Source: Eledone cirrhosa
Taxonomy: Eukaryota
Assembly: GCA_964016885.1 (NCBI GenBank)
Contig: CAXHJY010000415.1
Coordinates: 1-50,138, forward strand
Length of the DNA: 50,138 bases
Reading direction: 5' to 3'
The first letter of the stretch is position 1. Each line of letters starts with the position of its first letter. Shown piece after piece: positions 931-50,138 of this stretch. Under the pieces are notes generated by a model. It made no database searches and had not been told where the DNA came from. It saw only the letters and a list, made by a program, of their open reading frames with translations. The position numbers and the translations under genes are program-made.

Positions 931-7510
<6,580 letters not shown>

Positions 7511-13906: not shown

Positions 13907-13944
13907 CCTTTTGAAAAGCAGAAGAACTGCGAAACCGGTAAAGG
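13907..13944 (+). ncRNA. Minimal hammerhead, U3-A8 core variant
   Basis: CCTT TTGAAAA GCAG aagaa CTGC GAAA CCGG TA AAGG: stems I and II intact, palindromic stem III ACCGGT, GUA cleavage triplet. Confidence 0.68.
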
Positions 13945-14016
13945 AACCAAATAAATATATATATTTTTTAAAAAAATAAGACTCCAGTTGCATTTTCGAT
14001 TTCATCCCTTTTTCTT

Positions 14017-14066
<50 letters not shown>

Positions 14067-14154
14067 CCATCGATTACCTGTACTAGACACAGAGCTCTGG
14101 TTAGATACTATTAACAACCAAAAACAAATCCTCCATTCCCATTATGCCAAACCC

Positions 14155-15045: not shown

Positions 15046-15350
15046 GGACAAAATGAAAACACACACACACATAGAACAAACAACTTACAATTGAAAACAC
15101 ACACAAAATGAAAACACACACAAGACAAAATGAAAACACACACACACATAGAACAAACAAGCAACCAACAATAAATAAATAAATAAACAAACAAATAGAA
15201 AAATATAAATAGAAAAATAGAAAAATGAACACAAACACACACAGACACCCGGATGTGGCGCATGCGCAAACTGAGCACGCAACCCACACACAAACAAAAT
15301 GGCGTAGGATAGAAGAAAGGAAAGGCACAGAAACGAAGAAAGAAATCCCC

Positions 15351-15395
15351 AGTCACTGAAGAGGTCACAGAGTGTGTGACGAAAGAACTATGACT
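15351..15395 (+). ncRNA. Minimal type I hammerhead in the 5' pseudo-LTR
   Basis: AGTCA CTGAAGA g GTCACA gagtg TGTGAC GAAA GAAC TA TGACT. Hammerheads in PLE pLTRs are established. Confidence 0.78.
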
Positions 15396-15528
15396 ATATA
15401 TATATAAACAACTATCTGGTTGTGGAACCAACCAACCAACCAGAAATTTATAAATTTGTAAATTTATAAATATTTAATAAATTAAATTGAAGTGAAAGCA
15501 ACTGGTGCGTGTGTTTCTTATTGGCAAC

Positions 15529-16653
15529 ATGACCCTCCCAAAGTATAACAATATCGGTTTCAACACACGATTTCAGATAAAGAATCTTGCTAAACAAATT
15601 CAGAAACGAAATATCGTAAGCCTTAGCCAGGCTAACAAGATACTGAAAACCACCATGTTCTGTTGTCTACGAAAAACCATAACATCTCGACAACTACACT
15701 TCATAAAACTGTGCACCACTTCTAGAATCTACACCAACACCATCAATACTGACGTTAGAAGATTACAACTCACCAAAAAACAAGCAGATAGGCTAAAACG
15801 AACTTTAATTCTAAACATAAAAAAGAAGATCTATAGAGAATTAAGTCATCAAGAAAAACTAAAGCGTAACCTAATAGATGAAATATCTAAAATCACCACA
15901 CCAGCAGAAAAACTAACATTTATAAGCCTTATACGCCCCGAAGAACAGTACATTACTCAAGAATGTAATAAGCACTTTAACAGAAAATTAAAGTGGCTTA
16001 AACAGGCAAAGCTAAATCGGGATACTATAGAGTATACCAATAGATATCCCGACAAAATTGACGGTATCAACATGGCCGACACCTCATTATCTGAAGAGTT
16101 CAACAATGAAAATACCAACATCTATGGAAACACGGAAATAGATAATAATGAAATGTCTGTGTTACGTCTGCCACCCAAATTTGCGACATTCAAGAAGGTA
16201 AATATGATTAGTTGTCTGTCAGAAATAGAAAAATCATTTACGAAACTACGCTGGAGCATCAAAAACAAAAACAAAAGCAACAATATACGCACACACATAT
16301 ACAACACACATCCCAACAACAACAGACACACAGACACAAACAACAATAACAACAACAATAGCAACATACCCAGATACAACAACAACAATAGCAACATACC
16401 CAGATACAACAGACACGCAGACACAAACAACAATAACAACACACACGGAGACAATAATAACAACAACACACACATCAACAACAACAACAATAGCAACATA
16501 CCCAGATACAACAACAACAGACACGCAAACACAAACAACAATAACAACACACACAACAACGATAACACACACACACACGGAGACAACAACAACACACATC
16601 AACAACAACAACACACACGCATTCAATGCCTCTCACCACCACCACAATCTTAA
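15529..16653 (+). CDS. PLE protein N-terminal part with Asn-rich region (frameshifted relative to the RT part)
   Basis: Start MTLPKYNNI is conserved at 19818, 44168, 36783(-) and 50032(-). Homologous to the N-terminus of 40317-43661 (YPD.ID.I.M.D..L.EEF.N, LPPKFA). Confidence 0.8.
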   Translation: MTLPKYNNIGFNTRFQIKNLAKQIQKRNIVSLSQANKILKTTMFCCLRKTITSRQLHFIKLCTTSRIYTNTINTDVRRLQLTKKQADRLKRTLILNIKKKIYRELSHQEKLKRNLIDEISKITTPAEKLTFISLIRPEEQYITQECNKHFNRKLKWLKQAKLNRDTIEYTNRYPDKIDGINMADTSLSEEFNNENTNIYGNTEIDNNEMSVLRLPPKFATFKKVNMISCLSEIEKSFTKLRWSIKNKNKSNNIRTHIYNTHPNNNRHTDTNNNNNNNSNIPRYNNNNSNIPRYNRHADTNNNNNTHGDNNNNNTHINNNNNSNIPRYNNNRHANTNNNNNTHNNDNTHTHGDNNNTHQQQQHTRIQCLSPPPQS

Positions 16654-19334: not shown

Positions 19335-19639
19335 GGACAAAATGAAAACACACACACACATAGAACAAACAACTTACAATTGAAAACACACACAAAATGA
19401 AAACACACACAAGACAAAATGAAAACACACACACACATAGAACAAACAAGCAACCAACAATAAATAAATAAATAAACAAACAAATAGAAAAATATAAATA
19501 GAAAAATAGAAAAATGAACACAAACACACACAGACACCCGGATGTGGCGCATGCGCAAACTGAGCACGCAACCCACACACAAACAAAATGGCGTAGGATA
19601 GAAGAAAGGAAAGGCACAGAAACGAAGAAAGAAATCCCC

Positions 19640-19684
19640 AGTCACTGAAGAGGTCACAGAGTGTGTGACGAAAGAACTATGACT
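19640..19684 (+). ncRNA. Minimal type I hammerhead in the 3' pseudo-LTR
   Basis: Identical to 15351-15395. Confidence 0.78.
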
Positions 19685-19843
19685 ATATATATATAAACAA
19701 CTATCTGGTTGTGGAACCAACCAACCAACCAGAAATTTATAAAGTTGTAAATTTATAAATATTTAATAAATTAAATTGAAGTGAAAGCAATTGGTGCGTG
19801 TGTTTCTTATTGGCAACATGACCCTCCCAAAGTATAACAATAT

Positions 19844-19905
19844 ATATATATATATATATATAGTATATATATATATATATATAGTATATATATATATATA
19901 TATAG

Positions 19906-20989: not shown

Positions 20990-22340
20990 AGGAGTGACCA
21001 GCACTACGTTGTTTTATAAATAGAGACATACCCATGAAAATCATACCTTATCGGTTTAATACTCACTGGATAGTGGAAATATATTAGGGGTATTTCAAAC
21101 TTATGTGTGAATATGCAAATGAATATGTAAATAATTGAAAAACAACCGTTTTTTTAAACGACTATGGAGATAGAGAGAGAGACGAGATAATATGAGAAGG
21201 ATAAAAAAAGTGCAAGAAAGAAACAAGAGAAGATGAATAAAAACGTATAACGTTAACTTGAGGGAAATATACATCTTAATAGTACGTGTTTTTACGATTA
21301 TTAGTTGTTTTAATGAAATAAAAATTATTAAAATTAAAATTTTCAAAAAATTAGAATTATATACGTATATATTTTATGAAACTTTAAGAAGTCGAATTAG
21401 AGCAAATGTTATAGATATTATGATTTAGAGATATCAATATATTAAGACCAAGTGGATGAGATGTTTATGGAAATAAGTAGAAATATTATAAGTTCTATAT
21501 AGTTCTGAATGTTGAATTCTGGCGATGTCTTCAATAAATAAATAAATTCGTTCTTAGATTAATAGAGCTTTTACATTTAAGTATGAAAAGAATTTCCTCA
21601 ATACACAATTTGCAGAATCTAGATAAAGCTGTTTTCCAGTACGCGGGTGCTTATGAAACTGTTTCCCAAACTAATGAATAGTCCATATTCTTGCATTTTA
21701 AGTTCCATATCAGGTTTGAAAGAGAAGTTGAAGATTTTTTATCAAATCTTCGAAAAGAACAATTGTGGTTATTCCAGCGACTTTTAAATTCTGTAGAAAT
21801 TGCACCGACATAGTTAAATATATTATCACTAGTTTTAACTGTGCATTTATAGACCACGTTTTTATCTAAACACTTATTTTGTAAAGGACAGTTTGATTCA
21901 ATTCTACAGTTACATTTTGCGGAGTTGTTGTTGTTCGGAACGGTACTATTATGTTGGATATTGCTAGAGACATTACTGCTATTTTGGTTATTTTGGTTAG
22001 GGTTTAAATTCCTATTATTAATTCTATTTATATTTTGTGCTATGTTCATAGTAGTAGAGTAGGATAGTTTTATAGTATGTCTGTTAAAGGTTGAGTGGTA
22101 TCTGTGGGCTTTAGGAAAACATTTATCCAGTGCTTTAAAGAATAGCTTTGCTAAAGGTGTGTTTACGCTTAATGAGAATGGGGGTGAGTACCAAATAATA
22201 TTTCTAGTTCTAGTTCTTCTGTTAGTTTTAAAGTTTAAGTTAATTTTTTAAATTATTATTACAATTAATAGTAGGGTGATTTGCCTTATTACTGTTGTCG
22301 ATGTATTTAATCCTATTTGTATACCCTGCTCTATTTAAAT
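20990..22340 (-). mobile_element. 5'-truncated decayed lineage-2 PLE (GIY-YIG and 3' region)
   Basis: IIWYSPPF, CNCRIESNCPLQNKCLDKNVVYKCTV, YVGAISTEFKSRWNNH, CKLC. Homologous to 34940-36660. Confidence 0.82.
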
Positions 22341-24272: not shown

Positions 24273-24959
24273 CATATATATAAATATACACATACATATA
24301 CATACACATATACACACACAAACTCATATACATATACATATATATACATATATAAATACACGCATACATACATAACATACATACACGCATACATACATAA
24401 CATAAACATTCACATATATATATATTTTAAAAAACATCTATATAAATCCACACACGCAAAACAAATATAATACACGTACATACACATTCACATACACATA
24501 CACACATACCCATACATCCACACACACACCCACACGCACACACATACACACATATATATATATACATAAATATATATAGATATATATAAACACACACACA
24601 TATATACACAAATATACAATATACACATAAATATACAAAATGAATATATACAAATACATATATACACACATACACATATACACATATACACATAACTATA
24701 CAAAAATGCACGCATACAAAAATACACGAACAAACACGGAATACACATATACACATAACTATATACACACATACCAGTATATATAATAAATACTCCTATA
24801 AGTTATACAAACATATATACGTACGATAAAGTATACGTACCTCCACAAACATACAGGTAAGGTATACTTACCTATACAAATAAGTAATGGTATAAACATA
24901 AAATATACTTAGCTACCACATCAAGACGTAAATTATCCGCGTATTGTTCGTACTATCCG

Positions 24960-26582
24960 CTAGGATATAATACAGGAAAGTTTTATGCAATTTGTGTTTA
25001 CAAGCTGAAATTGCCTCTGATTTTTGTTTAAGATGTGATCGTTGGCGTAGAGTATTTCCAGGGCGTCAGCGGCGCAAAGATCACATGGTCTTTTATTTCC
25101 GTTATACGATCTAGCTTTAGCTAGGATCTCCCAGTGTAACCTATATTCTGTATGGTTGTCTTTTAGACTCCAGATATAAGCTGAAAGTAAAGTCATGTTC
25201 CTTCTTAAAGGGTTAAGAAAAGAATGGGTATGCATGTAAAGATGCTGCTTGAATCTATTGGCGGTTAACCCTATGTAGGCCCTACTAGAGGTGGGTACCT
25301 CGACCTTACATTTGTAGACAATATTACTGGAGAGGGCAATCAAGCCGATTCCTACAATTAGTGTTAGTACTAGATATAGGGTTGCACGTGTTGTTACGGC
25401 TATGTAATTTAGCTAAATTTGAAGCAGTGATGTTATGTGCAAAGTTAGGAGTCGTGGAGTAAGATATTTTAACGGTATTTCTATTAAAAATATTATTGTA
25501 TTTATGTGCTGAGGGGAAATGCTTCTTAAAAAGGGAGAGAAAGATTTTAACTAATGGTGTGGCCACCTCCATATTATATGGTGGGTTATACCATATAATG
25601 CGTCGGAATCTATTTTTCCTAGGTTTATGCTCATACTTAGTATATGCTACCTTATCGACAAATCCACTCCGAGCAAGAGCTTCATTGTAATGGTTGGTGA
25701 AAATATGCTCGTTTGTAGAAAGACGAGAAAGCCTCAAAAAACGTTTCTTACCAGGTTCTTGGTTATGCTGGCATGATGGTTAGAATGCTTACTGATGTAA
25801 TTAAGCGTATCATTCGGCTTTCTAAACGGGTAGTGCAAGCCATTCGACAAATTGAGGGTAACGTCGAGGTAGTTTATGACCGAAAGTTTGGCCTCAACTT
25901 GTATGGAGAGGTTGAAGCCTTTAACGAAAGCTGTGAGTTCTTTTCTAAACCTGTCGCAAGCGCGGGGACAGCACTTAGTCATGGTCAAAAGACCGTCATC
26001 GCGGCACAAGCCTCCGCCTACATTAGGGAATTCTTCCTTGATAGAGAAAAGAAGGAAAAGGCCGATAAAATCTGTAACATCCGCCGAATCACTGACGCCC
26101 ATACTCACGTCAAATGGGGTACTATTAGATTTTTTTATCCAAATGGAGTCGTCAAAATTAATCACCGACTTACGGGCATTGAGGATGGCATCAACTTCAA
26201 AATCCTTAACCACCGTGAACGTTTTAACGAAATTGATAGCTCTGAGAAGAACTGGTAAAGTGATGGAGGAGTAGTAGTTGTTGATGTCAAATTGGATAAA
26301 ACGGCAATGTTCCGTGTTGCATATTCCATTGAACCAATCAATCACCGCGAAAGAATTATTCCACAGTGCAAGAGGGGCCAAGCTTTTAATTTCAGGTATA
26401 ATTCTATCTAAAATTATTTTACTAAGTCTACACAAATCAGACTTCGTAGGGTTAATTAGCTGAATAGAAGAGTTGTTAGCAAAATTGGGTTTGTGATCCT
26501 TCAGGGTACAGTGGGAAGAAATAAGGTCCAGAGTTTCGGTCCGGTCCTGGATGTTGTGTTCAGAAGTGATTTTAAACCAAGC
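24960..26582 (-). pseudogene. Frameshifted PLE RT + GIY-YIG
   Basis: QFDINNYYSSI, FDVSMG, CRDDGL, NYLDVTLNL, IIWYNPPY, NIVYKCKV, YIGLTANRFKQ, CDLC. Confidence 0.9.
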
Positions 26583-26931
26583 ATATATATATTTTATATA
26601 GAAAGGGCTTCTACAGAACTAGAACTGTTTCATTCGTGAGAAATCATCAGGGATGTGGTGGTATTTATATCCTTTCTGGTGGTAGGAGTGGGTGGTGATT
26701 GGGATGGGTGGAGGTCATTGGTTGGTGGGTTTAAAGAAAAAGGAATTCTTTAAAAACTATATTTAGAGAAACAAAGGCAGAAAGAATTCTATAGACAGGT
26801 TCACCCTGGGGGTGCCACTCCTGATTTTAAAGGTTCACTTAAGCTAACAATGGCTATGCTCAAATCTCTACAAACACACTCACACATATAAGCCCTCACT
26901 CCACACACTCGCACAAACAAACACTCTTATA

Positions 26932-26968: not shown

Positions 26969-29900
26969 TAGCTGAGCTACCTGCTGATGCCCGCCGGGTA
27001 TTTTATGAAAGTTACAATATATTTGGCACACATTAGAAAATATTTGACCATTCAAATATGATTGCTGAATTTTTAACCAAAATAGGAATTATAGCAGAAT
27101 ATTTATTGCTGTTTGGTCAATGTAAATCATCTAGATAAAAATATTATTTTTTTCCAGTGGCGATTTTTTGAATACTCGTCCCTATTACAGTCAGCATATA
27201 TAATGCTTTACTCATAGATGAATCATTAGGTATGTTGTCAGTGAAAAGGGCATGACCAAAAAAACATTTAGATTTTTTTTATTTATCATTTTCTTTCTTT
27301 TTTTTTTTTTTTGCTCAATCTGAACCTCTGAAATTCAAACAACATGTAAAGACTATTTTAAAAACCAAAAATAAAATAAGAAAATACATTTACCATTGGT
27401 TTATGATTTAATGAAGCATTTACTTACTCATTTCTGTAATTCGGGGAAAGTGTATTTAAATTTGTACACTGTAGCTTTCACCAATCTTTGCCTCTATGGC
27501 AGTAGGATCTTGTTTGAGGGAGATTTGTTTTCTATTTCTATTAGATATACCAACAGTTATAGTGGCTCACATGACATACATAGATACATACACACACATG
27601 TATGTGTGTAAGACAGTTGTTTGTGATTTGAAATGGATTTTGCTAATATTTCTAGTAGATCGAGTTATCACATAGAACCATTCCTTTTCGCTTCATACAT
27701 ATATACATACCTGAGGTGGGATTTGAAGGAAATTTGGCTGCTATTTATACTCAACAAAATCCTCACTTATACTACTTTATATAGCAGAGGTACCCGGGAA
27801 TGCCTGCATATTCTTCCAAAGTAGCACCTTGCAGTAAATTTGCGGCTTCAGAATTCCTTTCAAACTACATGACTAAGGAATTAGGATCTGTGTGTATTGT
27901 CATTGAATGAGGAATTACGACATTGCTCATTCCAAAGCCTCTGGATAAACAACATTCTTGGTTTTGCCCTGTGGTACCACAATGAAGAGACAATCAGGGT
28001 TACCAACCCTTGTTGTGCCAACATAGAGTTGACCATGTGAAAAGACAGGATCTGCCAGATTCAACCCAACGACTTTCAATGATTTCCCTTGAGATTTATT
28101 AATGGTCATGGCAAAAAAGATCCTGATCGGAAATTGAAGTCTTTGAAATTCAAATGGCAAATCAGTTGGCTTCAGAGGTATTCTGGGAAGGAAACAATTA
28201 TTACCAGCAAATTTTCCTGACATGATTGCAACTTCTAGAACATTGGACATCATATTTTTCATGATGACTCTTGTGCCATTACAAAGTTTTGGAGGATCCA
28301 GAATGCGAAGTAGCATAACCGAGGTTCCAAGCTTCAGTATCAGGTTGTGTGGAAGAATTCCCGCTCGTTCAAGACTGTTCAAAATTTCAGTTGGATAGTT
28401 TACAACTTGATCTTGAGAAGTGATTGTGTCAACTGATTTGTAGCATATTTTCTCTCCCAGTAACATCTCCAGCAGCCTTCTGTTGATTTCTTTCACAACA
28501 ACATTTTTAGGTGCTAAGATTGCTCGCTTACAGAGCCATTTCGGATCACTTGCCTGGTTTGAATTTTTGGGAACACTCTGGCAATCAGTTCTTGTTCTGT
28601 GTCAATGATATGGGAAAATGACAACTGAATATGCTCATTGGAGTCCTTTTCAAAAAGTTCATTTCCAAATTTAAGTAGTTGGATGGCAAACTCACTGACA
28701 CCTTCGTCACCAGTTAAGTGCACTCGCATGTTGGTTGTAAGGAAAGCGGGACCAGAGATAGGATGTTTTCAGACAGGCATTGACCTGATCAGCTCGAGTC
28801 CCTCGAAGAATTACAGGCAGATTTTGTTTGAAATCACCAGCAAGAACCATTATTACTCCTCCCATTATGCAACTATTTTCTCTCAGATCCCTTATCGTCC
28901 GGTCCAAAGCTTCAATTGCTCCTTTATGGCTCAGAGTAGCTTCATCCCAAATTATCATCTTGCATGTTTGCAGAAGCTTGCCCTTGGGTGAGTTCTTCTT
29001 GATGTTGCAAAAAGATTGTTCATGCCGTGTGAGATCTATGGGCAGTTTAAACATGGAATGTGCAGTTCTTCCTCCATCCAGAAGTGTTGCTGCAATGCCA
29101 CTTGAAGCCACAGCAAGGGCAATATGTTGCTTTTTGCGAACTTTTGCAAGCAGGAGGTTTATGAGGAATGCTTTCGATGACGTTGTGGTAGGCGTATTTC
29201 TGGTCATCCATCAATCGAAGTTCATTTTCATCCACAAACTTATGCAATGCTTGAATATCGTAGTTTGTCTCCTGAAAAATGTCTTGTGTTACCTCCATTT
29301 CTTCATCTGGCTCTGGCATCCCGCAGTTATCTAATGTGCTATTCATTGCCCGGGGGCATATTCCATATACATATTGCCATGATGTCTTCGGGCTAGGTGT
29401 AGATAGTCGTCCGACATTGTTTTTGTACTCCTGCCAAAGTAGATGAGCTTCATCAATTCCACATGCTGTGAGCATAATAGCAAATAATTGTCTTATTTGA
29501 CTGGCTAATTGAGTGATTGCTGCTTCTTCTAGGTACTTCTTCCAGTGTCTATTGTAATGCAGGAGTCCATGCTGTTTACATGCTTCTTAGTATGCTGCGC
29601 ACTCCCTTCCTCTGAAGCCCCTAAGATCCTCAAATGATGTTGGTCCTCGAACAGTATGCAGAAGTAGCCATAAATAAAAACATTCTCTGTTGTTGTGATG
29701 GACATTGTAAACACGCCCAATAGCATCACTTGACTTGACTTCATGACCTTCCACTAAATGACCCTGCTTTCTCCGATTCCAGGTCTTTCAATTGGTCCAG
29801 GTGTAGTATGTTGCGACTTCAACATATAAGAGGCATCGAGCAAATTCATCATTCTGGCAGAGTTTAAATAAAGCAGTTAGTGTAGTGTCATGTGATGTTT

Positions 29901-32240
29901 GTGCCAACTGATGAGCAGTGATCTCAGTGAAGTACACTCTCTGTCCATTTTCTAGATGGACTGAGATATGACCACTGTTGGGTGGCATTGGTGGATATCG
30001 AATCCAAAGATTCGCCAGATAGCTTCATTGCTGGAGATGTATCGACCTGTTTGATACCGTTTGACCTCATCCAGCCCACCATCATTGAGTTCTTTGTCAG
30101 TAATAAATGTAGCCATGTCATTGCCCTTGTTGATATATTTTGTGACATATAGTATTGCCTTGACGGAGCTGCAATACTCAACATATGATATGAGCTTTTA
30201 AAGGCTTACACAACAATTTGTTGTGTGGGACGACCCAGCAATTGTTTATGGTCAGCTCCGCTCTCCGAACGGTTAGGCTTGCAGTATTGCCGCCATGTTC
30301 TGGTCTACGCCTACGATAAAGGGGGTATCCATTATTGTCAGTCCGAGTTTCCAGAATAAAAGCTCTAGGATAATGTTTGCTGCATTTTTTATCTTTCATG
30401 CAGGGAGAGGCTGGATTGATGACTCCACATGGACCATGAATGATTTTGGACTTGATGGTTTCAAAGAGCTCTGGATCACCACCTTTATCAAACAACTCTC
30501 CTGAAATGATCTTATCAACATCATCTGGTCTTATCTTCTTCTTGCACCAGATTAGTGTGTAATCGTGAGGAAGACCTCTCGTCTGCCACTCAATAGTGGT
30601 CATCCAAGCACTAAGCTCACCAAAGATTCTTCCTTCTTTTAGGAACCAGATGAGTATTTTTTCTATTGCTTTTCATGGGAAACCCGAGCAATAAGGTCAT
30701 GGCAATTCTTTGGTTTTTGATTTTGAAATAATTCATTGGATATTTCTAACCAGTTTTAATTGCATGTAAATGTAATGAAGAGATCTGGCCGACCAAATTT
30801 TCTGACATAGGCCATTGCATCTTGCGTACGTTCATGAATGTAACGTGGTCCTCTCGTGAAGCTTGATGGTAGATTGACTGGCTAGCCAATATTTCTTGGG
30901 TCAACATCAGAATTGATGGTATCTCTAAGGTGGATGTAGTTATCTGCCCTCAACTTAGTTTGATTCCTTCGCAGAAAACCCAATCTTTCTGTTTCAATTT
31001 TGGCATACATGTCCACCATGAACTGGCTGTTTACTTTTTTTGAATCGCAGAACTTGGTTGAAGTGATCACGTATCATGAAATGTTAAGCATAGAATTCTT
31101 TGCAGCTGATTGATCGGCCAATTTCTTGTCCCGTTCCTGGGCTGATCTGCCGTAGCTGAAAATGATATCCATCTTGACCATTCCAAAAGATGAGCGGATA
31201 TTGGAGTGAATCATAGGCTCTATGAGTTTCACAAATTGGCTCCAAATGTCCATTTCGTTTTTGCAAAACAATGTCACGTCGTTCATGCTGTTCATCAACC
31301 ATTATGATTGCAACTTCATCAGTGACAGATGCATTGAATCTGCATTCATGTTCTGGAGCTGGGCGTTTTTCTGCCCTAATGATGATTTTACGTTCTCTGG
31401 TGTTGTTCATATGCTCCAGTGCATATTTAAATACACTGACGTACATGTGATGTTGGTGAAGCATTTCTTGTAACTTTATGACTATGTAGAACTGCAATCC
31501 ACCATGGACATTGGTACATCTTTGTTGTGCCTGTGTTTCATTTCAACCCATGAAGTAAACCTGCACAAATTTGTGAGGCTCATGTGAAAGTGGCAGAAGG
31601 CGGCCCATTAAGTGGTAACACTGTCCCTGGATTTTATTAGTTGTACAGAATCTAAAGTCAGTCACATTCCTGTCACCCAAAAAGATGTCATTTGAAAGGC
31701 AGAATTATATTTTATGATGTATTTATCGAAGTGTCGTGCTTCTGGTGTATGCTGAATGAGCAGAATATTCAGAAATTCAGGAGGTTCTTGTATTGTTTTA
31801 AGGCTCACTTTGCCTTTTGAGCAGCATAGACTTGGTGTTACCGCTGCCCACTTCTTGGCACCACAATACTGGCAGCATTTGTTCATTTTCCCAATGTTGA
31901 TTTGTGGATTACTGCTGTAGTCCTTTTGGGGGTCATCAGCCAGTTCATTTTACTTGGAGATTGCTCTCCTGCTCGGGCAGTAGAACGATGTGCTTGATTA
32001 GCATTTCGTCTGATTTGCTGCTGTTCCTTAATTTGTTGTTCTTGTGTAGCATCAGTCCTTTGTTCCCTTTCATTCAAACGGTGTGCTCGTGCTAAAGTTG
32101 TTTGGGCTCTGTTAGCAGCTAGACGGGCATGCCGAACTTCTTCACTTTCTTCAGATCGCTGTGTTTTCTTGCTCTTAGCCTCTGAAGATAACCTTCCATA
32201 TAATGATCTGGAACGTTTTCTAGGCATTTGAAGTGATATT
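26968..32240 (-). mobile_element. Decayed autonomous Helitron (5' end not identified)
   Basis: Rep-Hel remnant; minus-strand 3' end with an imperfect GC hairpin (26978-27000), then CTAG (26971-26968) followed by T. Confidence 0.8.
27927..32227 (-). pseudogene. Helitron Rep (HUH/Y2) - Pif1 helicase pseudogene
   Basis: MPRKRS start, CQYCGAKKW...CCSKGKV, YNSAFQMTSF, YDSLQYPL, KIETERL, GRPDLFITFTCN, EWQTRGLPH, HGPCG, YVTKYINKG, VHLENGQRVYF, VASSGIAATLLDGGRTAHS, IIWDE, GDFKQNLPV, AMTINKSQG, FSHGQLYV. Numerous stops and frameshifts. Confidence 0.95.
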
Positions 32241-34939: not shown

Positions 34940-36658
34940 GAATTAATAATAGAATCTTAAATTGAAACCCTAACCAAAATAACCATAATAGCAATAATAA
35001 TATTTCTAGTAATATCCAACATAATAGTACCGTTCCGAGCAACAATAACTCCGTAAAATGTAACTGTAGAATCAAATCAAACTTCCCTTTATAAAATAAG
35101 TGTTTAGATAAAAACGTAGTCTATAAATGCACAGTTAAAACTAGTGATAATATATTTAACTAAGTCGGTGCCACTTCTACAAAATTTAAAGATCGCTGGA
35201 ATAACCATAATCATTCTTTCAGAGGATCTGATAAAAAATCTTCTACTTCTCTTTAACATCTTATATGGAACTTAAAAAGCAAGAATATAGACTATTCAAT
35301 ATCTTGGAAACGATTTCGAAAGCAGCTGCATACCGAAATATGGCTTTATCAAAATTCTGTAAATTGTGTATTGAAGAAAATTTTATATAATTAACTGTCA
35401 AAACTCTATTAATCTCAGGACAGAATTATTTAATTCTTGCAGACATCGCCAAAATTCTACATTCAGAACTATGTGTAATTTATAATATTCCTATAAATCT
35501 TTAAAATGATCCTATCTTTTTTAACAATTTAAATTTGTTATATATTAATATCTCTAAATCATAATATCTCTAATATGTGTAGTACTTTCACCTTTCAGAA
35601 AATATTTCTTATAATATATATATATATTTATTTATTTATATATATATATGTGTATAGATATTTATATATATTTATGTATATCTATGTAATTTTAATTTTA
35701 ATTTTTTAATTTTTTATTTCTTTAATTCTTACATCATATTTTTTCATTGACACCCTCTAAAGCTATTTTTTTAAACGTAGATTAATAACCATTAACTGGC
35801 TTTAGGAAAATGTATCCTATGCAAGAGGATGTTTAAATACTCATATTTCTTTCGACTAAATAATTAATCAATCTCACACTAACTATTAAAACATTTATCG
35901 ATTAACAAATAAAATTGGAGTTATACTTCCTTTCTCAGTCATATAAACTTATTAAACCTATCCCCGTTAATTTAAAACATTCTCAAAGCCGAACAAGTTA
36001 TCCAAATATATAAATTCATAATTTTAACTACCTATTTATGTACATAAAATACAAAATCAATCCCCTCGTAACTCATATTAAAAACAACCACCTAAAACTT
36101 GAACTACCTATTTATTTATTTATCTACATAAAACACAAAGTCAACATCACTCGTAACTCATAGTATAAACAACTAATAATTGCAAATTATCCTTTTAATA
36201 AAAATACATATGCTATTATTAAAATATATATAGATATTTATATATTTAACCCACTACAATATTATAATAAAATAAATACTTACTAACATAATTCTCCATA
36301 TAAATATATACATAATATAGGTAAATATTCAAATTTATTTCCCCCAAATTAACGTATATAAGTGGTCTTCTTTTTCTTTTTCCTTCTTCCTCTTTTTCTT
36401 TTTACTTTTTTACTTTTTTCTTTTTTCTTTCTTACTCTCTTACTACTATATCTAAACTTTCTATAGCGTTTAAAATAACGGCTTTTCAATCATATAACTC
36501 AACATTATTTACATATTCATTTGCATACTCATCCATAAGTGTGAAAAATCCGCTCCTTAATCTCAATACCCAAGGAAAATTCAACTGATAAGGTATGTTT
36601 CCTTGGGTATGTCAACATTTATAAAACATTCTTTGTATTTTATCTGATGAAAGCGTAC

Positions 36659-36660: not shown

Positions 36661-36716
<56 letters not shown>

Positions 36717-36717
36717 G

Positions 36718-39700
36718 TTTTGCAAGGTTTTTTATATGAAATCGTGTGTCCAAACAGATATTGTTATATTTGGGGAGGGTCATATTTGCGTAATATTGCC
36801 AGAATTAATAACAGAACACACTCACTGTTTGGTTGGTTTTCGCTTCTCGCTGTCTTTTATATATATATATCTGCGATCTAACTTACTCGGTCCTCAATGT
36901 TGCCATTGACTGACCGGCGGTCAAAAATAATACAGATACAATATAGACACAAACACATATATATAGTTTACATAATTTACATAAACCTTTCGTTGCACAT
37001 CTGCAACATCGTCAGTGGTGTTATATTCATTGTTCCTCCTGTTGTGTTGTATGTCTACGCCATTTTTTTTGTTCAGTCTGTCTATATATTTATTTATTTA
37101 TTTGCTTGTTTGTTTATCTTATTTTATTTTGTCTTCTTTGCGCATGCGTTTGCGTTTGCGTGTGTGTATAGTGTTATGTGTGATGTGTGACTAGTGTGTA
37201 TAGTGTTGTGTCTGCTGGGTGACTAGTGTGTGTTTATGTGCTTGTGTATGTATTTATTTATCTTATTTTATTTAATTTTATTTACTTATTTATACTTCTC
37301 TTAGGTCAGTGTTGTTTGTTTGGGTGTTGTTGTTGTTCCACTCATTCTTTCTGTTTAGCTTTGGTCTTCTAATTTCTATTTCACTGGCCTCTCTGATTTG
37401 CCTATCTGCTGGGTCATTCCTATGTTTAGATATTATTCTAATTTCTATGTTGTCTATGTTACCGTCATGTTGTTGTCTAGCATGTTCGTATAGTACTGAC
37501 CCGTTTTTTCGTCCTTTTAGTTCCCCCCAGTGTTGGTCTATCCTTTCACCTATGCTACGAGCTGTCTCACCTATGTATGTTGTTGTCATGTTTCTGCAAG
37601 TACCCTCTGTACATCTTATGCTATAGACTACGTTTCTAGTTTTACAGTTTATCCGGGGGTTCACCTTACATATGATACATTTCCTATTGGTACAGTGGGT
37701 TTTCTTAAACGGGTAGGTTTTGCTGATCAGGGATTTTATGGTGGTTCCTGGCTTTTCTACCACCTTTATTTTTAAGTGGGTCTTTCTCAGGGCCTTTCTA
37801 CACTGGTTAGCTAATTTCCCTCCAGGGGTGGCGTCCACAAACATGACACTCTGATATCTCTGGTTGTCGTACCATGATGTGGCCTTCCCTATCTTATGTC
37901 TAGCCCTATCTAAGCTATTCCATGATTTGCTCCTGTATAGTGGGCAAATTCCTTTCATGTCCAGTTCTATGAGGGTCTTATACTTTTCCATGGCTCCTTC
38001 GTATACTCTGACTCTGTCTCTTTGGTTGTAGCCAGAGAACTGCATGCGGTTGATGAAGTGTTGGATGTGTCCTTCCATTTCTGTTGGGTCGCACATGCTG
38101 GACACATTCTTCATCACTCGTACCAAATCTGCGATCAGAATATTAAACTTAGCACTACTGGACATTGCTGAGTTTTTGAGTATCAGGTATTTGGAGGCCA
38201 TGGGTTTAGCATAGTGTGAGTGGAGAATTTGGGCTCTCTCGTCTATAGTGTTAATCCAGAGTTCTGTGTCTAATACAGGTAGTCTATTGTTAGGGTGTTT
38301 GGAAGGGAAGTCTATAGTTACAGTTATACTCTGGTGTATGGAATTAGCTATCTGCTGGATGCTTTCCATCGTGCTACGTTCTAAATCAAACTTGTTAGTG
38401 CTCTCTAGTGGGGGTGTTCTTATAACTATATTGATATCGTCTACATAACGAGAGTACATGATGAGGTCTATGGAGCTTTCATTAAGGAGATCTTTAAGTC
38501 TCCTTTCCCACCATACCATGAAAAGGTTGGCAACATCACCAGCTATGCTGACGCCGATGGCTGCTCCCTCATTTTGGGTGTAGATTTTCTCATTGAACTT
38601 AAATATGTGGCCCTTTAGGGTAGTTTTGATACTAGCCCCTATTGCATGTGCGACCATTTTTCTTACCTGATCAGTGTTTTGGGGGGTCCGTATAGCTTTG
38701 GTCCACCCAATCCACCTTCCTATGGGAGTCTTTTTAGCCATTGAGGTTATGGTGGGGGGTCTACCTCTTATAGGTCTACTAGGGCAGAAACATCTAAGGT
38801 CATGGCTGTCTAGGTAGTCAGTGTCGTAGGTAAGTCTAAGTAGGAGGCCCAGTTCGTCTGTGTCGACGTCGCAGAACTCCACCTCACTCTCAATGATCAT
38901 CTCCACACATCTTTTCACAGCAAAATCAATGTTAATGGATGGGTACAGTGACACCACATCCATGCTGCCTATTATGCAGTTGGATAAGCTCCTGTTTTTG
39001 TTGCACTCACTGATTCTGCTGAGGAGGTCCTCTGTACTTTCACATACATCTGGGCACATCTTGATTATGGGGCGTATAACCATTGAGAGGAAGTAGGAGA
39101 TCCTGTAGTTGCTAGCTATATTAGCTCCGCATACGGGTCTTGTTGGTGGTCCTGTTGTCGGGTCGTCGACTGTCTTGTGGTCTTTGCGGAGCCCATACAA
39201 GGGTGGTATGCCATTGTTAGACGCCTGGAAGTTGTTGGCAGTGCGTCTGCTTGGCTTTAGGATGTCAGTCCACATCATCATGTGAGCGTTGAGGATTTTT
39301 TCTCTCCCATCGTGTGTTAGTTGTGCAACTTCGCTCGTGTTGGTGATGTGGGGTTGCATTGCCTCGATGTAGTTCGGCATGCTATCTATTGACATCCTAC
39401 CAGACTTATCTGTGGGTAGACACACTACCTCACCATCCCTTGTGCGCTGCTTGAGGCTAACCAAGCCTTCTACAGGTTTTATCCCAAGTTGTTGGGCCTC
39501 TGGTCTGCTCTGTCTCATAGTGTACCTGTCTACTACTTGTCTAATCTTATTTCTAGCTATGGTGAACTGTGCCTCCGTCTCGTCATCTATTTGCTGTGGT
39601 ATGCAAACTCTTTCATTAAAGGGTAACCTCGTAGGATAGATATTACCCATCTTATATGTTTTGTCAGCTGGGTTGAAAAATAGTTTCTCTAAGGGGTTGT

Positions 39701-40281
39701 CGTTATTTCTATCGTCATAGTTGTGTGTGTTGCTATTATTGTTATCATGGTGGTTGTTGTTGTTTCTATCATTAGCATTAATATTATTATTCTTATGATT
39801 GCTAGATGTATTGTTGTTTACTTCACCGTTATTGTTGTTGTTGTTACTGCTATTTCTACCATTGTGGTTGTTACTATTATTATGTTTCTTGTTTTTGTTG
39901 ATGTTGCTACATGTACTATTTCCATTATTACCACTGTGGTTATTGTTGTTGTTGTTGTTCGTATTGTTACCGTTATTACTACTGTGGTCACTGTTGCTGT
40001 GTCTGTGGTTAACGTTTCTATTATTATTATTATTGTGGTTGTTGTTGTTCTGTCTATCGCTAGTATTATTGCCATTATCACTATTTCTCACTTTCCTGCC
40101 ATTGTTATGGTTATGGCTGTTATTTCTATACCCAGAGTTATTGTTTATATTACTACTACCGTTATTATTGTTGTTGTTGTTTACCTTTGCATTCCAACGT
40201 ATTTTTGTGAAACACTTTTCCAGCTCCGTTTTGCATTCCATGGGGTTAATCTTTTTGTAGATGGCAAATTTTGGTGGTAAC
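36718..40281 (-). mobile_element. PLE family 1b, inverted (left) arm
   Basis: 36758-40281 is the reverse complement of 40670-44193; the 3' end joins (TA)n at ~36717. Confidence 0.95.
36971..37025 (-). ncRNA. Hammerhead-like motif (mirror of 43926-43980)
   Basis: CTGACGA t GTTGCA gatg TGCAAC GAAA GGTT TA. Confidence 0.55.
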
Positions 40282-40283
40282 AA
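37290..40283 (-). CDS. 5'-truncated but uninterrupted PLE RT + GIY-YIG ORF
   Basis: 997 aa open frame, nearly identical to 40317-43661 from LPP onward. No natural start codon. Confidence 0.9.
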   Translation of the reverse strand: MLPPKFAIYKKINPMECKTELEKCFTKIRWNAKVNNNNNNNGSSNINNNSGYRNNSHNHNNGRKVRNSDNGNNTSDRQNNNNHNNNNNRNVNHRHSNSDHSSNNGNNTNNNNNNNHSGNNGNSTCSNINKNKKHNNSNNHNGRNSSNNNNNNGEVNNNTSSNHKNNNINANDRNNNNHHDNNNSNTHNYDDRNNDNPLEKLFFNPADKTYKMGNIYPTRLPFNERVCIPQQIDDETEAQFTIARNKIRQVVDRYTMRQSRPEAQQLGIKPVEGLVSLKQRTRDGEVVCLPTDKSGRMSIDSMPNYIEAMQPHITNTSEVAQLTHDGREKILNAHMMMWTDILKPSRRTANNFQASNNGIPPLYGLRKDHKTVDDPTTGPPTRPVCGANIASNYRISYFLSMVIRPIIKMCPDVCESTEDLLSRISECNKNRSLSNCIIGSMDVVSLYPSINIDFAVKRCVEMIIESEVEFCDVDTDELGLLLRLTYDTDYLDSHDLRCFCPSRPIRGRPPTITSMAKKTPIGRWIGWTKAIRTPQNTDQVRKMVAHAIGASIKTTLKGHIFKFNEKIYTQNEGAAIGVSIAGDVANLFMVWWERRLKDLLNESSIDLIMYSRYVDDINIVIRTPPLESTNKFDLERSTMESIQQIANSIHQSITVTIDFPSKHPNNRLPVLDTELWINTIDERAQILHSHYAKPMASKYLILKNSAMSSSAKFNILIADLVRVMKNVSSMCDPTEMEGHIQHFINRMQFSGYNQRDRVRVYEGAMEKYKTLIELDMKGICPLYRSKSWNSLDRARHKIGKATSWYDNQRYQSVMFVDATPGGKLANQCRKALRKTHLKIKVVEKPGTTIKSLISKTYPFKKTHCTNRKCIICKVNPRINCKTRNVVYSIRCTEGTCRNMTTTYIGETARSIGERIDQHWGELKGRKNGSVLYEHARQQHDGNIDNIEIRIISKHRNDPADRQIREASEIEIRRPKLNRKNEWNNNNTQTNNTDLREV

Positions 40284-40316
40284 GCTGAACGGCTAAAACA
40301 CACAATAACAGTTAAA

Positions 40317-43300
40317 ATGAAAAGAACAACATACACAAAAGTCAACGCACTCTACAGACAAAAACGCATCAACGGTAAGGAAATCCGAAATCTCATCACA
40401 ACAAACGAGAGAGATGACTTCATGAGCGTCATCCGACGCGAAACGAAATATGCTCAAAACGAATGCTGTAGGCATTTCAAGAAGAAATTAGAATGGATGA
40501 ATAAGAAAAAACTACAAGAAAGGAAAATCGAATATTCTCAAAAATACCCAGATAACATCGACAACATCCGTATGAGTGATGTAAAACTACCGGAAGAATT
40601 TACCAATGACCACACAGTAAATATCTATGGGAACACTTTAATCAGTGAACAAGAACAACAAATCCTAAAGTTACCACCAACATTTGCCATCTACAAAAAG
40701 ATTAACCCTATGGAATGCAAAACGGAGCTGGAAAAGTGTTTCACAAAAATACGTTGGAATGCAAAGGTAAACAACAACAACAATAATAACGGTAGTAGTA
40801 ATATAAACAATAACTCTGGGTATAGAAATAACAGCCATAACCATAACAATGGCAGGAAAGTGAGAAATAGTGATAATGGCAATAATACTAGCGATAGACA
40901 GAACAACAACAACCACAATAATAATAATAATAGAAACGTTAACCACAGACACAGCAACAGTGACCACAGTAGTAATAACGGTAACAATACGAACAACAAC
41001 AACAACAATAACCACAGTGGTAATAATGGAAATAGTACATGTAGCAACATCAACAAAAACAAGAAACATAATAATAGTAACAACCACAATGGTAGAAATA
41101 GCAGTAACAACAACAACAATAACGGTGAAGTAAACAACAATACATCTAGCAATCATAAGAATAATAATATTAATGCTAATGATAGAAACAACAACAACCA
41201 CCATGATAACAATAATAGCAACACACACAACTATGACGATAGAAATAACGACAACCCCTTAGAGAAACTATTTTTCAACCCAGCTGACAAAACATATAAG
41301 ATGGGTAATATCTATCCTACGAGGTTACCCTTTAATGAAAGAGTTTGCATACCACAGCAAATAGATGACGAGACGGAGGCACAGTTCACCATAGCTAGAA
41401 ATAAGATTAGACAAGTAGTAGACAGGTACACTATGAGACAGAGCAGACCAGAGGCCCAACAACTTGGGATAAAACCTGTAGAAGGCTTGGTTAGCCTCAA
41501 GCAGCGCACAAGGGATGGTGAGGTAGTGTGTCTACCCACAGATAAGTCTGGTAGGATGTCAATAGATAGCATGCCGAACTACATCGAGGCAATGCAACCC
41601 CACATCACCAACACGAGCGAAGTTGCACAACTAACACACGATGGGAGAGAAAAAATCCTCAACGCTCACATGATGATGTGGACTGACATCCTAAAGCCAA
41701 GCAGACGCACTGCCAACAACTTCCAGGCGTCTAACAATGGCATACCACCCTTGTATGGGCTCCGCAAAGACCACAAGACAGTCGACGACCCGACAACAGG
41801 ACCACCAACAAGACCCGTATGCGGAGCTAATATAGCTAGCAACTACAGGATCTCCTACTTCCTCTCAATGGTTATACGCCCCATAATCAAGATGTGCCCA
41901 GATGTATGTGAAAGTACAGAGGACCTCCTCAGCAGAATCAGTGAGTGCAACAAAAACAGGAGCTTATCCAACTGCATAATAGGCAGCATGGATGTGGTGT
42001 CACTGTACCCATCCATTAACATTGATTTTGCTGTGAAAAGATGTGTGGAGATGATCATTGAGAGTGAGGTGGAGTTCTGCGACGTCGACACAGACGAACT
42101 GGGCCTCCTACTTAGACTTACCTACGACACTGACTACCTAGACAGCCATGACCTTAGATGTTTCTGCCCTAGTAGACCTATAAGAGGTAGACCCCCCACC
42201 ATAACCTCAATGGCTAAAAAGACTCCCATAGGAAGGTGGATTGGGTGGACCAAAGCTATACGGACCCCCCAAAACACTGATCAGGTAAGAAAAATGGTCG
42301 CACATGCAATAGGGGCTAGTATCAAAACTACCCTAAAGGGCCACATATTTAAGTTCAATGAGAAAATCTACACCCAAAATGAGGGAGCAGCCATCGGCGT
42401 CAGCATAGCTGGTGATGTTGCCAACCTTTTCATGGTATGGTGGGAAAGGAGACTTAAAGATCTCCTTAATGAAAGCTCCATAGACCTCATCATGTACTCT
42501 CGTTATGTAGACGATATCAATATAGTTATAAGAACACCCCCACTAGAGAGCACTAACAAGTTTGATTTAGAACGTAGCACGATGGAAAGCATCCAGCAGA
42601 TAGCTAATTCCATACACCAGAGTATAACTGTAACTATAGACTTCCCTTCCAAACACCCTAACAATAGACTACCTGTATTAGACACAGAACTCTGGATTAA
42701 CACTATAGACGAGAGAGCCCAAATTCTCCACTCACACTATGCTAAACCCATGGCCTCCAAATACCTGATACTCAAAAACTCAGCAATGTCCAGTAGTGCT
42801 AAGTTTAATATTCTGATCGCAGATTTGGTACGAGTGATGAAGAATGTGTCCAGCATGTGCGACCCAACAGAAATGGAAGGACACATCCAACACTTCATCA
42901 ACCGCATGCAGTTCTCTGGCTACAACCAAAGAGACAGAGTCAGAGTATACGAAGGAGCCATGGAAAAGTATAAGACCCTCATAGAACTGGACATGAAAGG
43001 AATTTGCCCACTATACAGGAGCAAATCATGGAATAGCTTAGATAGGGCTAGACATAAGATAGGGAAGGCCACATCATGGTACGACAACCAGAGATATCAG
43101 AGTGTCATGTTTGTGGACGCCACCCCTGGAGGGAAATTAGCTAACCAGTGTAGAAAGGCCCTGAGAAAGACCCACTTAAAAATAAAGGTGGTAGAAAAGC
43201 CAGGAACCACCATAAAATCCCTGATCAGCAAAACCTACCCGTTTAAGAAAACCCACTGTACCAATAGGAAATGTATCATATGTAAGGTGAACCCCCGGAT

Positions 43301-43661
43301 AAACTGTAAAACTAGAAACGTAGTCTATAGCATAAGATGTACAGAGGGTACTTGCAGAAACATGACAACAACATACATAGGTGAGACAGCTCGTAGCATA
43401 GGTGAAAGGATAGACCAACACTGGGGGGAACTAAAAGGACGAAAAAACGGGTCAGTACTATACGAACATGCTAGACAACAACATGACGGTAACATAGACA
43501 ACATAGAAATTAGAATAATATCTAAACATAGGAATGACCCAGCAGATAGGCAAATCAGAGAGGCCAGTGAAATAGAAATTAGAAGACCAAAGCTAAACAG
43601 AAAGAATGAGTGGAACAACAACAACACCCAAACAAACAACACTGACCTAAGAGAAGTATAA
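40317..43661 (+). CDS. PLE RT + GIY-YIG with poly-Asn insert (lacks roughly the first 85-95 aa)
   Basis: TDKSGR, LYGLRKDHK, GSMDVVSLYPSI, GAAIG, YSRYVDD, Cys linker, YIGETARS, LNRKNEW. 1114 aa uninterrupted. Confidence 0.95.
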   Translation: MKRTTYTKVNALYRQKRINGKEIRNLITTNERDDFMSVIRRETKYAQNECCRHFKKKLEWMNKKKLQERKIEYSQKYPDNIDNIRMSDVKLPEEFTNDHTVNIYGNTLISEQEQQILKLPPTFAIYKKINPMECKTELEKCFTKIRWNAKVNNNNNNNGSSNINNNSGYRNNSHNHNNGRKVRNSDNGNNTSDRQNNNNHNNNNNRNVNHRHSNSDHSSNNGNNTNNNNNNNHSGNNGNSTCSNINKNKKHNNSNNHNGRNSSNNNNNNGEVNNNTSSNHKNNNINANDRNNNNHHDNNNSNTHNYDDRNNDNPLEKLFFNPADKTYKMGNIYPTRLPFNERVCIPQQIDDETEAQFTIARNKIRQVVDRYTMRQSRPEAQQLGIKPVEGLVSLKQRTRDGEVVCLPTDKSGRMSIDSMPNYIEAMQPHITNTSEVAQLTHDGREKILNAHMMMWTDILKPSRRTANNFQASNNGIPPLYGLRKDHKTVDDPTTGPPTRPVCGANIASNYRISYFLSMVIRPIIKMCPDVCESTEDLLSRISECNKNRSLSNCIIGSMDVVSLYPSINIDFAVKRCVEMIIESEVEFCDVDTDELGLLLRLTYDTDYLDSHDLRCFCPSRPIRGRPPTITSMAKKTPIGRWIGWTKAIRTPQNTDQVRKMVAHAIGASIKTTLKGHIFKFNEKIYTQNEGAAIGVSIAGDVANLFMVWWERRLKDLLNESSIDLIMYSRYVDDINIVIRTPPLESTNKFDLERSTMESIQQIANSIHQSITVTIDFPSKHPNNRLPVLDTELWINTIDERAQILHSHYAKPMASKYLILKNSAMSSSAKFNILIADLVRVMKNVSSMCDPTEMEGHIQHFINRMQFSGYNQRDRVRVYEGAMEKYKTLIELDMKGICPLYRSKSWNSLDRARHKIGKATSWYDNQRYQSVMFVDATPGGKLANQCRKALRKTHLKIKVVEKPGTTIKSLISKTYPFKKTHCTNRKCIICKVNPRINCKTRNVVYSIRCTEGTCRNMTTTYIGETARSIGERIDQHWGELKGRKNGSVLYEHARQQHDGNIDNIEIRIISKHRNDPADRQIREASEIEIRRPKLNRKNEWNNNNTQTNNTDLREV

Positions 43662-43925
43662 ATAAGTAAATAAAATTAAATAAAATAAGATAAATAAATA
43701 CATACACAAGCACATAAACACACACTAGTCACCCAGCAGACACAACACTATACACACTAGTCACACATCACACATAACACTATACACACACGCAAACGCA
43801 AACGCATGCGCAAAGAAGACAAAATAAAATAAGATAAACAAACAAGCAAATAAATAAATAAATATATAGACAGACTGAACAAAAAAAATGGCGTAGACAT
43901 ACAACACAACAGGAGGAACAATGAA

Positions 43926-43980
43926 TATAACACCACTGACGATGTTGCAGATGTGCAACGAAAGGTTTATGTAAATTATG
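43926..43980 (+). ncRNA. Hammerhead-like motif in the family 1b 3' region
   Basis: CA CTGACGA t GTTGCA gatg TGCAAC GAAA GGTT TA TG. Stem I is weak; same position as the family 1a hammerhead. Confidence 0.55.
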
Positions 43981-44200
43981 TAAACTATATATATGTGTTT
44001 GTGTCTATATTGTATCTGTATTATTTTTGACCGCCGGTCAGTCAATGGCAACATTGAGGACCGAGTAAGTTAGATCGTAGATATATATATATAAAAGACA
44101 GCGAGAAGCGAAAACCAACCAAACAGTGAGTGTGTTCTGTTATTAATTCTGGCAATATTACGCAAATATGACCCTCCCCAAATATAACAATATATATATT

Positions 44201-45469: not shown

Positions 45470-45812
45470 AAAAGGAAAAAAAGATGAAATCGAAAATGTA
45501 ACTGGAGTTATTTTTAAAAAACATATATATTTATTTGGTTGCTTTACCGGTTTCGCAATTCTTCTGCTTTTCAAAAGTAGAGTTGAGATGGAGGGTCTGT
45601 GGTTTTTCTCAGATGTGAAAAAAACCACAGGCTCTCCATCTCAACTCTACTTTTGAAAAGCAGAAGAACTGCGAAACCGGTAAAGCAACCAAATAAATAT
45701 ATATATATTTTTTAAATAAGACTCCAGTTGCATTTTCGATTTCATCTTTTTTCCTTATACTTTCACTCGTGTAGGACACTTCGGTTATTTTTCATTTTGT
45801 AAAAAATACCTC

Positions 45813-49951: not shown

Positions 49952-49952
<1 letters not shown>

Positions 49953-50138
49953 CGGAGATGAATTAGTTTTGCGAGGTTTTTTATATGAAATCGTGTGTCG
50001 AAACAAATATTGTTATACTTGGGGAGGGTCATATTTGTGTAATATTGCCATAATTAATAACAGAACACACTCACTGTTTGGTTGGTTTTCGCTTCTCGCT
50101 TCTGTGTCTTTTATATCGGTAATCTAACTTACTCAGTC
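49952..50138 (-). mobile_element. 3' end (pseudo-LTR) of another family 1b-like PLE, running off the window
   Basis: Matches 36718-36892; encodes [24 protein letters not shown] and then joins (TA)n. Confidence 0.88.

What the first reader, a model, noticed from the sequence alone, without database searches (positions are those of the whole stretch)
36718..44193. 7.4 kb palindromic double PLE: two 3.5 kb arms, 3' ends outward in (TA)n
Seen: 36758-40281 mirrors 40670-44193 around a 388 bp spacer that is itself PLE coding sequence. Both RT-EN frames are open and both are 5'-truncated at different points. At least three differences exist (PPK/PPT codon, CCC/CCT, gatcgc/gatcgt) and the 3' endpoints differ. 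Established: short inverted pLTRs occur in PLEs. Inference: since (TA)n is self-complementary, both ends of one break could prime reverse transcription and the two cDNAs join head to head (possible AAC microhomology at 40279-40281). The locus is a potential long-dsRNA source and fragile site.
Basis: partly seen in the sequence, partly recalled or inferred. Interest (0 to 1): 0.75.

Follow-up and report, generated by a model that had tools for sequence, protein, structure and literature searches.

The report
Two-armed Penelope retrotransposon mirror insertion
This 7.4-kb mirror-image stretch is one of many head-to-head insertions of a young Penelope-like jumping gene, a layout already described, and the copies suggest that both ends of the cut DNA likely copy the same template from two fixed start points, which makes an open question about how these elements insert testable.

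Summary
The palindrome is in the assembly as described: 3,524-bp arms, 3 mismatches, 388-bp coding spacer. It is not unusual here. The family has 5,030 exact pLTR matches; 26 of the first 64 clusters are head-to-head, some with longer arms on chromosome-scale contigs. The layout (inverted 5'-truncated copy, one-sided tail) is published (PMC8557442, PMC3846280).

Family statistics constrain the mechanism. 31 of 32 outward-facing end pairs join one tailless end with one tailed end. Arms share one haplotype: 9 discordant of 816 comparisons, 135 expected. Junctions carry microhomology or short inserts; this one has 2 nt (AC), not AAC. In 46 of 66 neither arm contains the other, against simple fold-back.

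Best reading: both ends of one cut prime reverse transcription at two fixed sites on one donor's RNA, probably one molecule, and the cDNAs are end-joined. No laid run (8 of 24) spans this junction and no empty site was found, so the locus itself is unverified; dsRNA and fragility are untested. This scan reached the same idea earlier on other DNA.

The parts
36662..36717 (.). (TA)n tract, left target flank; follows the end of an unrelated repeat
   Evidence: sequence; flank is a repeat family, no allelic copy among 40 of 4057 candidates scored
36715..36757 (-). 43-nt tail (unit positions 1-43, start of the ORF), present only on the left arm; 2 differences from the family
   Evidence: 849 exact ends of this type in the genome
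36758..40281 (-). left arm, 5'-truncated at unit position about 617; open RT-EN frame 37290-40292 without its first ~214 codons
36964..37015 (-). hammerhead-like motif of the left pLTR (mirror of 43936-43987)
   Evidence: mirror of the right-arm motif
40280..40281 (.). head-to-head junction, 2-nt microhomology AC, no TA tract between arms
40282..40669 (+). 388-bp spacer: coding sequence reached only by the right arm (unit 228-615); 2 private variants (40316, 40401)
40670..44193 (+). right arm, mirrored part; with the spacer it covers unit 227 to the tailless end; ORF 40281-43661
40770..41255 (+). asparagine-rich tract, in frame, N-terminal to the RT; longer than in aligned homologs
41259..43658 (+). 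RT (DKSG, YVDD) followed by CX4CxxC linker and C-terminal GIY-YIG-type endonuclease with two Cys and two His
   Evidence: motif names from PMC8557442
43936..43987 (+). hammerhead-like motif (CUGACGA, 6-bp stem II, GAAA, long stem III); stem I weak, no Rfam match
   Evidence: by eye and folding; Rfam negative
44168..44193 (+). ATG and first 8 codons of the next unit inside the pLTR, ending at the tailless site
   Evidence: 2,140 exact tailless ends in the genome
44192..44454 (.). (TA)n tract, right target flank
   Evidence: flank beyond is repeat, no allelic copy among 40 of 5545 candidates scored

Best explanation
The stretch is a head-to-head insertion of a young endonuclease-bearing Penelope-like retrotransposon, with one tailless and one tailed end, likely made in one event in which both ends of a cut in (TA)n primed reverse transcription on one donor's RNA. 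Shown: the anatomy, the one-tail rule, the shared haplotype of the arms, microhomology or short inserts at junctions. Inferred: the endonuclease cuts both strands; one 3' end starts at the tailless site and the other 43 or 58 nt further 3'; both RTs move toward the RNA's 5' end; where the tail-primed copy passes the other start site both arms copy the same sequence; the two cDNAs stop at different points (here unit 227 and 617) and host end-joining links them. Odds: two-ended priming at two fixed sites on one donor's RNA about 0.75; literally one RNA molecule about 0.55. The locus is a dead-end copy without start codon or upstream pLTR.
For: One-tail rule: 31 tailless+tailed, 1 tailed+tailed, 0 tailless+tailless among 32 outward pairs in C1:1-163 Mb, 50% mixed expected, p 7e-9; that one exception has mirrored flanks for about 550 bp, so it looks like a different event. 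Tail-blind sample: 23 of 24 simple palindromic loci (one duplicate and one nested locus left out). Genome-wide 2,140 tailless vs 1,191+849 tailed ends. Haplotype: 9 of 816 polymorphic-site comparisons discordant in 50 arm pairs, 135 expected; locus-private variants recur in all units of both arms at B, D, E. Junctions: of 52, 17 have inserts; 23 of the other 35 have 2 nt or more microhomology vs 14.5% by chance. Arm 5' ends lie within 40 nt in 14 of 66 vs 3.5 permuted. Tail-primed arms of 80 nt or less: 14 vs 5 tailless, p 0.045. Target duplication at L067. In vitro, anole Poseidon cleaves and extends both strands and starts at two adjacent internal RNA sites bounding the tail (PMC11167929).
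Against: PMC11167929 saw no difference in start site between the two strands and no homology of start site to target, so it does not show the pairing rule. Two further loci have two tails without mirrored flanks (L053, L108) and one old locus may have none (L103). At locus C the arms differ by a 139-bp deletion and 6 substitutions. A shared haplotype shows one donor, not one molecule, and the cross-locus null mixes subfamily ages. Matching 5' ends could come from later deletion of the palindrome centre. In the window all 3 mismatches lie within 116 bp of an arm edge (p about 3e-4, a post hoc test) and shared private variants are skewed AT-to-GC (16:10 vs 28:59, p 0.011), both compatible with arm-to-arm conversion or assembly smoothing. 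No A-to-G strand bias marks the shared variants as RNA edits. Many insertions are one-armed. No read evidence for this locus. Arm lengths were read by hand.
Confidence: 0.7

Rival explanations
1. Two RNAs from the same donor, each held by one subunit of an asymmetric complex, are copied from the two ends. Same outcome, two templates.
For: Explains shared haplotype if one donor is active per cell; explains locus C and the two-tail loci; needs no strand displacement. A dimer is predicted for the anole protein (PMC11167929).
Against: Gives no reason for strict tailless+tailed pairing, for matching 5' ends in arms over 350 nt (5 vs 0.36 expected) or for the excess of tail-only stubs.
Confidence: 0.15
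2. Fold-back or self-priming: one strand folds on itself and copies itself (self-priming on an antisense template, PMC3846280), and the tail is trimmed on one side during resolution.
For: Explains identical arms; 4 loci have both arms ending within about 1 nt, one in a natural hairpin (L058, L072, L074, L119).
Against: The copied arm should lie within the first. In 46 of 66 loci, and in the window, the tailless arm reaches further 5' while the other holds the tail. 22 of 52 junctions are blunt or carry inserts, with nothing to anneal.
Confidence: 0.06
3. Arms came from unrelated templates or separate insertions and were made alike later by gene conversion or by assembly polishing.
For: Edge clustering of the window's 3 mismatches; AT-to-GC skew of shared variants; six variants shared by the window's arms were absent from 57-110 sampled alignments, and 13 copies carrying one of two of them did not carry the others.
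Against: Diverged loci keep private arm differences in the interior yet share subfamily alleles (L088: 8 unshared private, 8 shared polymorphic). 34 of 37 arm differences are new alleles, not family polymorphisms. Separate insertions into (TA)n would leave TA at the junction and random end types.
Confidence: 0.05
4. This particular locus is an assembly or read fold-back artefact.
For: Small 50-kb contig; no allelic site; no bridging contig or read.
Against: The mirror stops at family-specific ends, excludes the flanks, has a spacer and 3 differences, and follows the family's one-tail and microhomology pattern seen on chromosome-scale contigs.
Confidence: 0.04

Closest known systems
EN+ Penelope-like element insertions with an inverted 5'-truncated copy and one-sided tail (Craig 2021, PMC8557442, passages; Pen2a_Av, Arkhipova 2013, PMC3846280, passages and Discussion)
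   Same: Partial tandems, inverted 5'-truncated copy adjoining the 5' end, tail on one end, microsatellite target, Asn-rich in-frame tract.
   Different: Tail is 43 or 58 nt rather than 30-40; Asn tract lies before the RT; both arms here are kilobases long. The passages read describe the layout but give no pairing counts, and PMC3846280 favours self-priming.
Poseidon of Anolis carolinensis in vitro (Frangieh 2024, PMC11167929; parts 1-2 of 4 read, supplements not)
   Same: ORF starts in the pLTR; internal start sites bound the tail; AT-rich target; both strands cut and extended.
   Different: That work did not link the two sites to the two strands or to inverted copies. This element has the CX4CxxC linker that Poseidon lacks, and its start sites are TA steps matching the target.
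LINE-1 twin priming (PMC11702581, passages)
   Same: Both ends of one break primed; inverted head-to-head junction with microhomology or end-joining marks.
   Different: In L1 the two cDNAs cover adjacent, non-overlapping parts and the inner primer site is variable. Here both start sites are fixed 43-58 nt apart and the arms overlap almost fully, giving palindromes.

Membership tests
EN+ Penelope-like element (C-terminal EN) | Single ORF, RT followed by GIY-YIG-type endonuclease | tested here: met
   1210-aa ORF; DKSG, YVDD and VVY...YIGET motifs conserved in the alignment. By motif only: Pfam gave 0 hits, PDB only weak RT hits, E 0.059 and 0.18.
EN+ Penelope-like element (C-terminal EN) | Partial tandems forming pLTRs; ORF start inside the pLTR | tested here: met
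EN+ Penelope-like element (C-terminal EN) | Optional tail at one end; inverted 5'-truncated copy | tested here: met
EN+ Penelope-like element (C-terminal EN) | Hammerhead ribozyme in the pLTR | tested here: inconclusive
   Core and stems II and III visible, stem I weak; no Rfam match; cleavage untested.
Neptune or Nematis clade | CX2-5CxxC linker before EN and internal CCHH | tested here: met
   CTNRKCIIC, then C, C, H, H; definitions from PMC8557442
Neptune or Nematis clade | RT phylogeny with named clade members | not tested
   No named clade references among the 120 homologs listed; the two clades are not separated here.
Penelope/Poseidon clade | No zinc-finger linker | tested here: not met
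   linker present
Hydra clade | DKT, CxCX5C linker, no CCHH | tested here: not met
   DKS, CX4CxxC and CCHH present
Naiad/Chlamys | N-terminal endonuclease | tested here: not met
   EN is C-terminal
L1-type twin priming product | Two cDNAs cover non-overlapping parts of the RNA | tested here: not met
   Arms overlap by 3,524 nt; only the tail-only stub loci fit.
L1-type twin priming product | Target-site duplication | tested here: inconclusive
   Hidden in (TA)n at this locus; seen at one sister locus, L067.

The most novel reading that the evidence does not exclude
Double copying of one RNA is this element's normal insertion route: two RTs on a single RNA start at two fixed sites from opposite target strands and the second displaces the first, so every insertion begins two-armed and one-armed copies are cases where one arm stayed a stub. 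Arrays of up to three units with shared private mutations would come from going round a circular 4.1-kb RNA.
Probability: 0.35. Interest if true: 0.75.

Novelty: new member of a known kind. Interest (0 to 1): 0.45.

Why it matters
How Penelope-like elements form inverted copies and one-sided tails is stated as unresolved in the papers read (PMC8557442, PMC3846280, PMC11167929). This family supplies thousands of young copies, intact 1210-aa ORFs and a sharp rule (one tailless plus one tailed end, one haplotype) that an existing in vitro assay could test with two barcoded RNAs. It also implies roughly 1,300 or more element-made palindromes in this genome (26 per 100 matches times 5,030; an extrapolation from the start of one contig), which matters for assembly and possibly for hairpin RNA. 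The single locus adds little by itself.

Tried and rejected
Read support: 8 of 24 listed runs laid on the junction; none bridges it, and they lack the window's private spacer alleles where they cover them, so they are uninformative. No RNA holder listed. Empty site: flank searches scored 40 candidates each and found only repeats. Sister copies of the window's haplotype: 13 loci sharing one rare allele and 2 sharing a tail allele share no others. RNA-editing mark in shared variants: A>G 7 vs T>C 6, none. Excess private variants in the window's spacer and tail (4 in 431, p 0.014) vanished when pooled, 0.19% vs 0.16%. Complex prediction for two copies of the N-terminal 245 residues: no verdict. 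Pfam, Rfam and PDB searches gave nothing usable. First self-comparison timed out. Literature searches for a two-ended model for PLEs listed none; subscription papers such as the 2005 and 2006 PLE reviews are outside the library and were not seen, and no supplements were read, so the pairing may be in print there.
Full report
Observation. The mirror is exact as reported: 36758-40281 against 40670-44193, 3,524 bp, three mismatches, no gaps, 388-bp spacer. Both frames are open. The window is the whole of contig C442 in a 3.0-Gb assembly. The junction microhomology is AC, 2 nt. The left arm carries 43 extra bases (36715-36757) that are the start of the next unit, the tail; the right arm stops at the tailless site.

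The element. Tandem copies define a unit of about 4,140 bp and a 1210-aa ORF that starts inside the pLTR; full-length frames occur in 5 of the 11 arrays checked at 1209-1210 aa and one at 1208. [quoted passage not shown] By the motif definitions in PMC8557442 (passages) this is Neptune or Nematis type; no tree was made. 162 homologs passed E 1e-20 among 7,997 candidates scored; the best named one is an Octopus vulgaris protein at 68%. A hammerhead-like motif lies at 43936-43987; Rfam did not recognise it. The window's two arms lack 84 and about 214 N-terminal codons and have no upstream pLTR.

The locus is typical. A pLTR 29-mer has 5,030 exact matches. Among the first 100, neighbours within 10 kb face outward 27 times and inward 4 times, and 26 of 64 clusters hold an outward pair. 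Of 45 consecutive ends in C1:88-133 Mb that looked unpaired by exact pattern, 19 were clearly two-armed on inspection and 2 more had short tail stubs; with the 10 pattern-paired loci in C1:86-133 Mb that is at least 29 of about 55 loci. Larger examples exist on chromosome-scale contigs, such as arms of 6.8 and 10.1 kb. This layout is published: an inverted 5'-truncated copy next to the 5' end and a tail at only one end (PMC8557442; PMC3846280, passages and Discussion).

One tail per insertion. Exact ends running into (TA)n number 2,140 tailless, 1,191 with a 58-nt tail and 849 with a 43-nt tail. In C1:1-163 Mb, where all three lists are complete (208 ends), outward pairs are 31 mixed, 1 two-tailed, 0 tailless pairs; independence predicts 50% mixed. 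The two-tailed one (L118) has flanks mirrored for about 550 bp. A sample chosen without regard to tails gave 23 of 24 (duplicate L054 and nested L070 left out). Real exceptions: L053 and L108 with two tails, possibly L103 with none. Ends use the TA steps at -2, +42 and +56 but not those at +22 and +24, so the sites are fixed by something beyond pairing with the target. Five copies that looked single carry an inverted 8-16-nt tail stub on their far side.

One template lineage. At 46 polymorphic sites, 50 arm pairs disagree in 9 of 816 comparisons, against 135 expected from pairs of different loci; 6 of the 9 lie at an alignment end or gap. Of 37 arm differences in an earlier set, 34 are new alleles. 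In multi-unit arrays, locus-private variants recur in all units and both arms at B, D and E; the three units at D share one truncated frame. This shows one donor. Hints of one molecule: arm 5' ends lie within 40 nt in 14 of 66 end-sampled loci against 3.5 permuted, and 5 against 0.36 for arms over 350 nt; tail-primed arms of 80 nt or less outnumber tailless ones 14 to 5, p 0.045 (lengths read by hand; complex, duplicate and older loci were left out there). Against: locus C, where the left outer unit lacks a 139-bp deletion found in all three right-hand copies.

Junctions. Of 52, 17 have inserts of 1-31 nt, several copied from adjacent sequence, 5 are blunt, and 23 of the 35 without inserts have 2 nt or more of microhomology against 14.5% by chance (the calls used eight reference units and the null one, which may inflate the excess slightly). 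This resembles the end-joining marks at L1 inversion junctions (PMC11702581, passages). L067 shows a duplicated target, CACTACACTAT.

Mechanism. Inferred: a cut on both strands gives two primers; one starts at the tailless site and one at a tail site; both copy toward the 5' end; the cDNAs are joined. The anole enzyme cuts and extends both strands and starts at two internal sites bounding the tail, but showed no strand difference in start site (PMC11167929, parts 1-2 of 4). That PLE RTs lack RNase H and could displace a strand is recalled, not from a call. Simple fold-back fails where the tailless arm is longer while the other holds the tail: 46 of 66 loci and the window. Later conversion may contribute here: the three mismatches sit within 116 bp of arm edges, six rare variants are shared by both arms with no sister copy found, and shared variants are skewed AT-to-GC.

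Not shown. No run bridges this junction, no empty site was found, and hairpin RNA and fragility are untested. The mirror's respect for family ends makes an artefact unlikely.

Prior work. Five literature searches listed no paper proposing paired two-ended priming for PLEs; key subscription reviews and all supplements were not seen. PMC4209133 and bioRxiv 10.64898/2026.07.22.740005 were read as passages only. Earlier notes of this scan reach the same idea for ribozyme repeats in this genome and for PLEs in other genomes; they are not evidence. My reading was recorded before the first look-up; the circle idea and the editing test came partly from those notes.

Verdict. Real in the assembly, a new member of a known kind, interest 0.45. 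The value lies in the family-wide rule, not in this locus.

Noticed in passing
window 14066-19844 (+): A sister PLE family, about 73% identical in the RT-EN region, as a partial tandem (14066-15458 repeats 18349-19747 at 99.3%) between (TA)n tracts; its ORF start and tailless end are nearly the same sequence as in the studied family, and its low-complexity tract is Thr-rich.
   Followed up: partly
window 49952-50138 (-): The contig ends inside another, about 90% identical copy of the family that begins with a 58-nt tail after (TA)n.
   Followed up: partly
L036-L038 (G000:C1:181.298-181.313 Mb): Array whose right-arm units share a 139-bp 3' deletion that the left outer unit lacks, with a mosaic of private alleles.
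   Followed up: partly
L118 (G000:C1:21325500-21332499): Two-tailed palindrome whose flanks are also mirrored for about 550 bp; a larger inverted duplication or an assembly error.
   Followed up: partly
family unit positions about 3800-3840 and 204-227: 5' truncation points cluster here; the first may be the RNA's 5' end, the second includes the window's right arm. Not tested statistically, and the second is partly biased by how loci were chosen.
   Followed up: no
L068, L069, L051 flanks: (TA)n tracts on both sides carry the same periodic interruptions, as if a short target unit was reiterated.
   Followed up: no
window 27930-31542 (-): Broken frames that look like a Helitron Rep/PIF1 helicase (recalled motifs, no search).
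   Followed up: no
window 8943-10814, 21478-22247, 24744-26618, 34960-35493: Fragments of a further RT-like repeat family in several copies.
   Followed up: no
window 13790-13948 and 45537-45690: Short self-palindromic repeats of about 155 bp, 90% alike.
   Followed up: no
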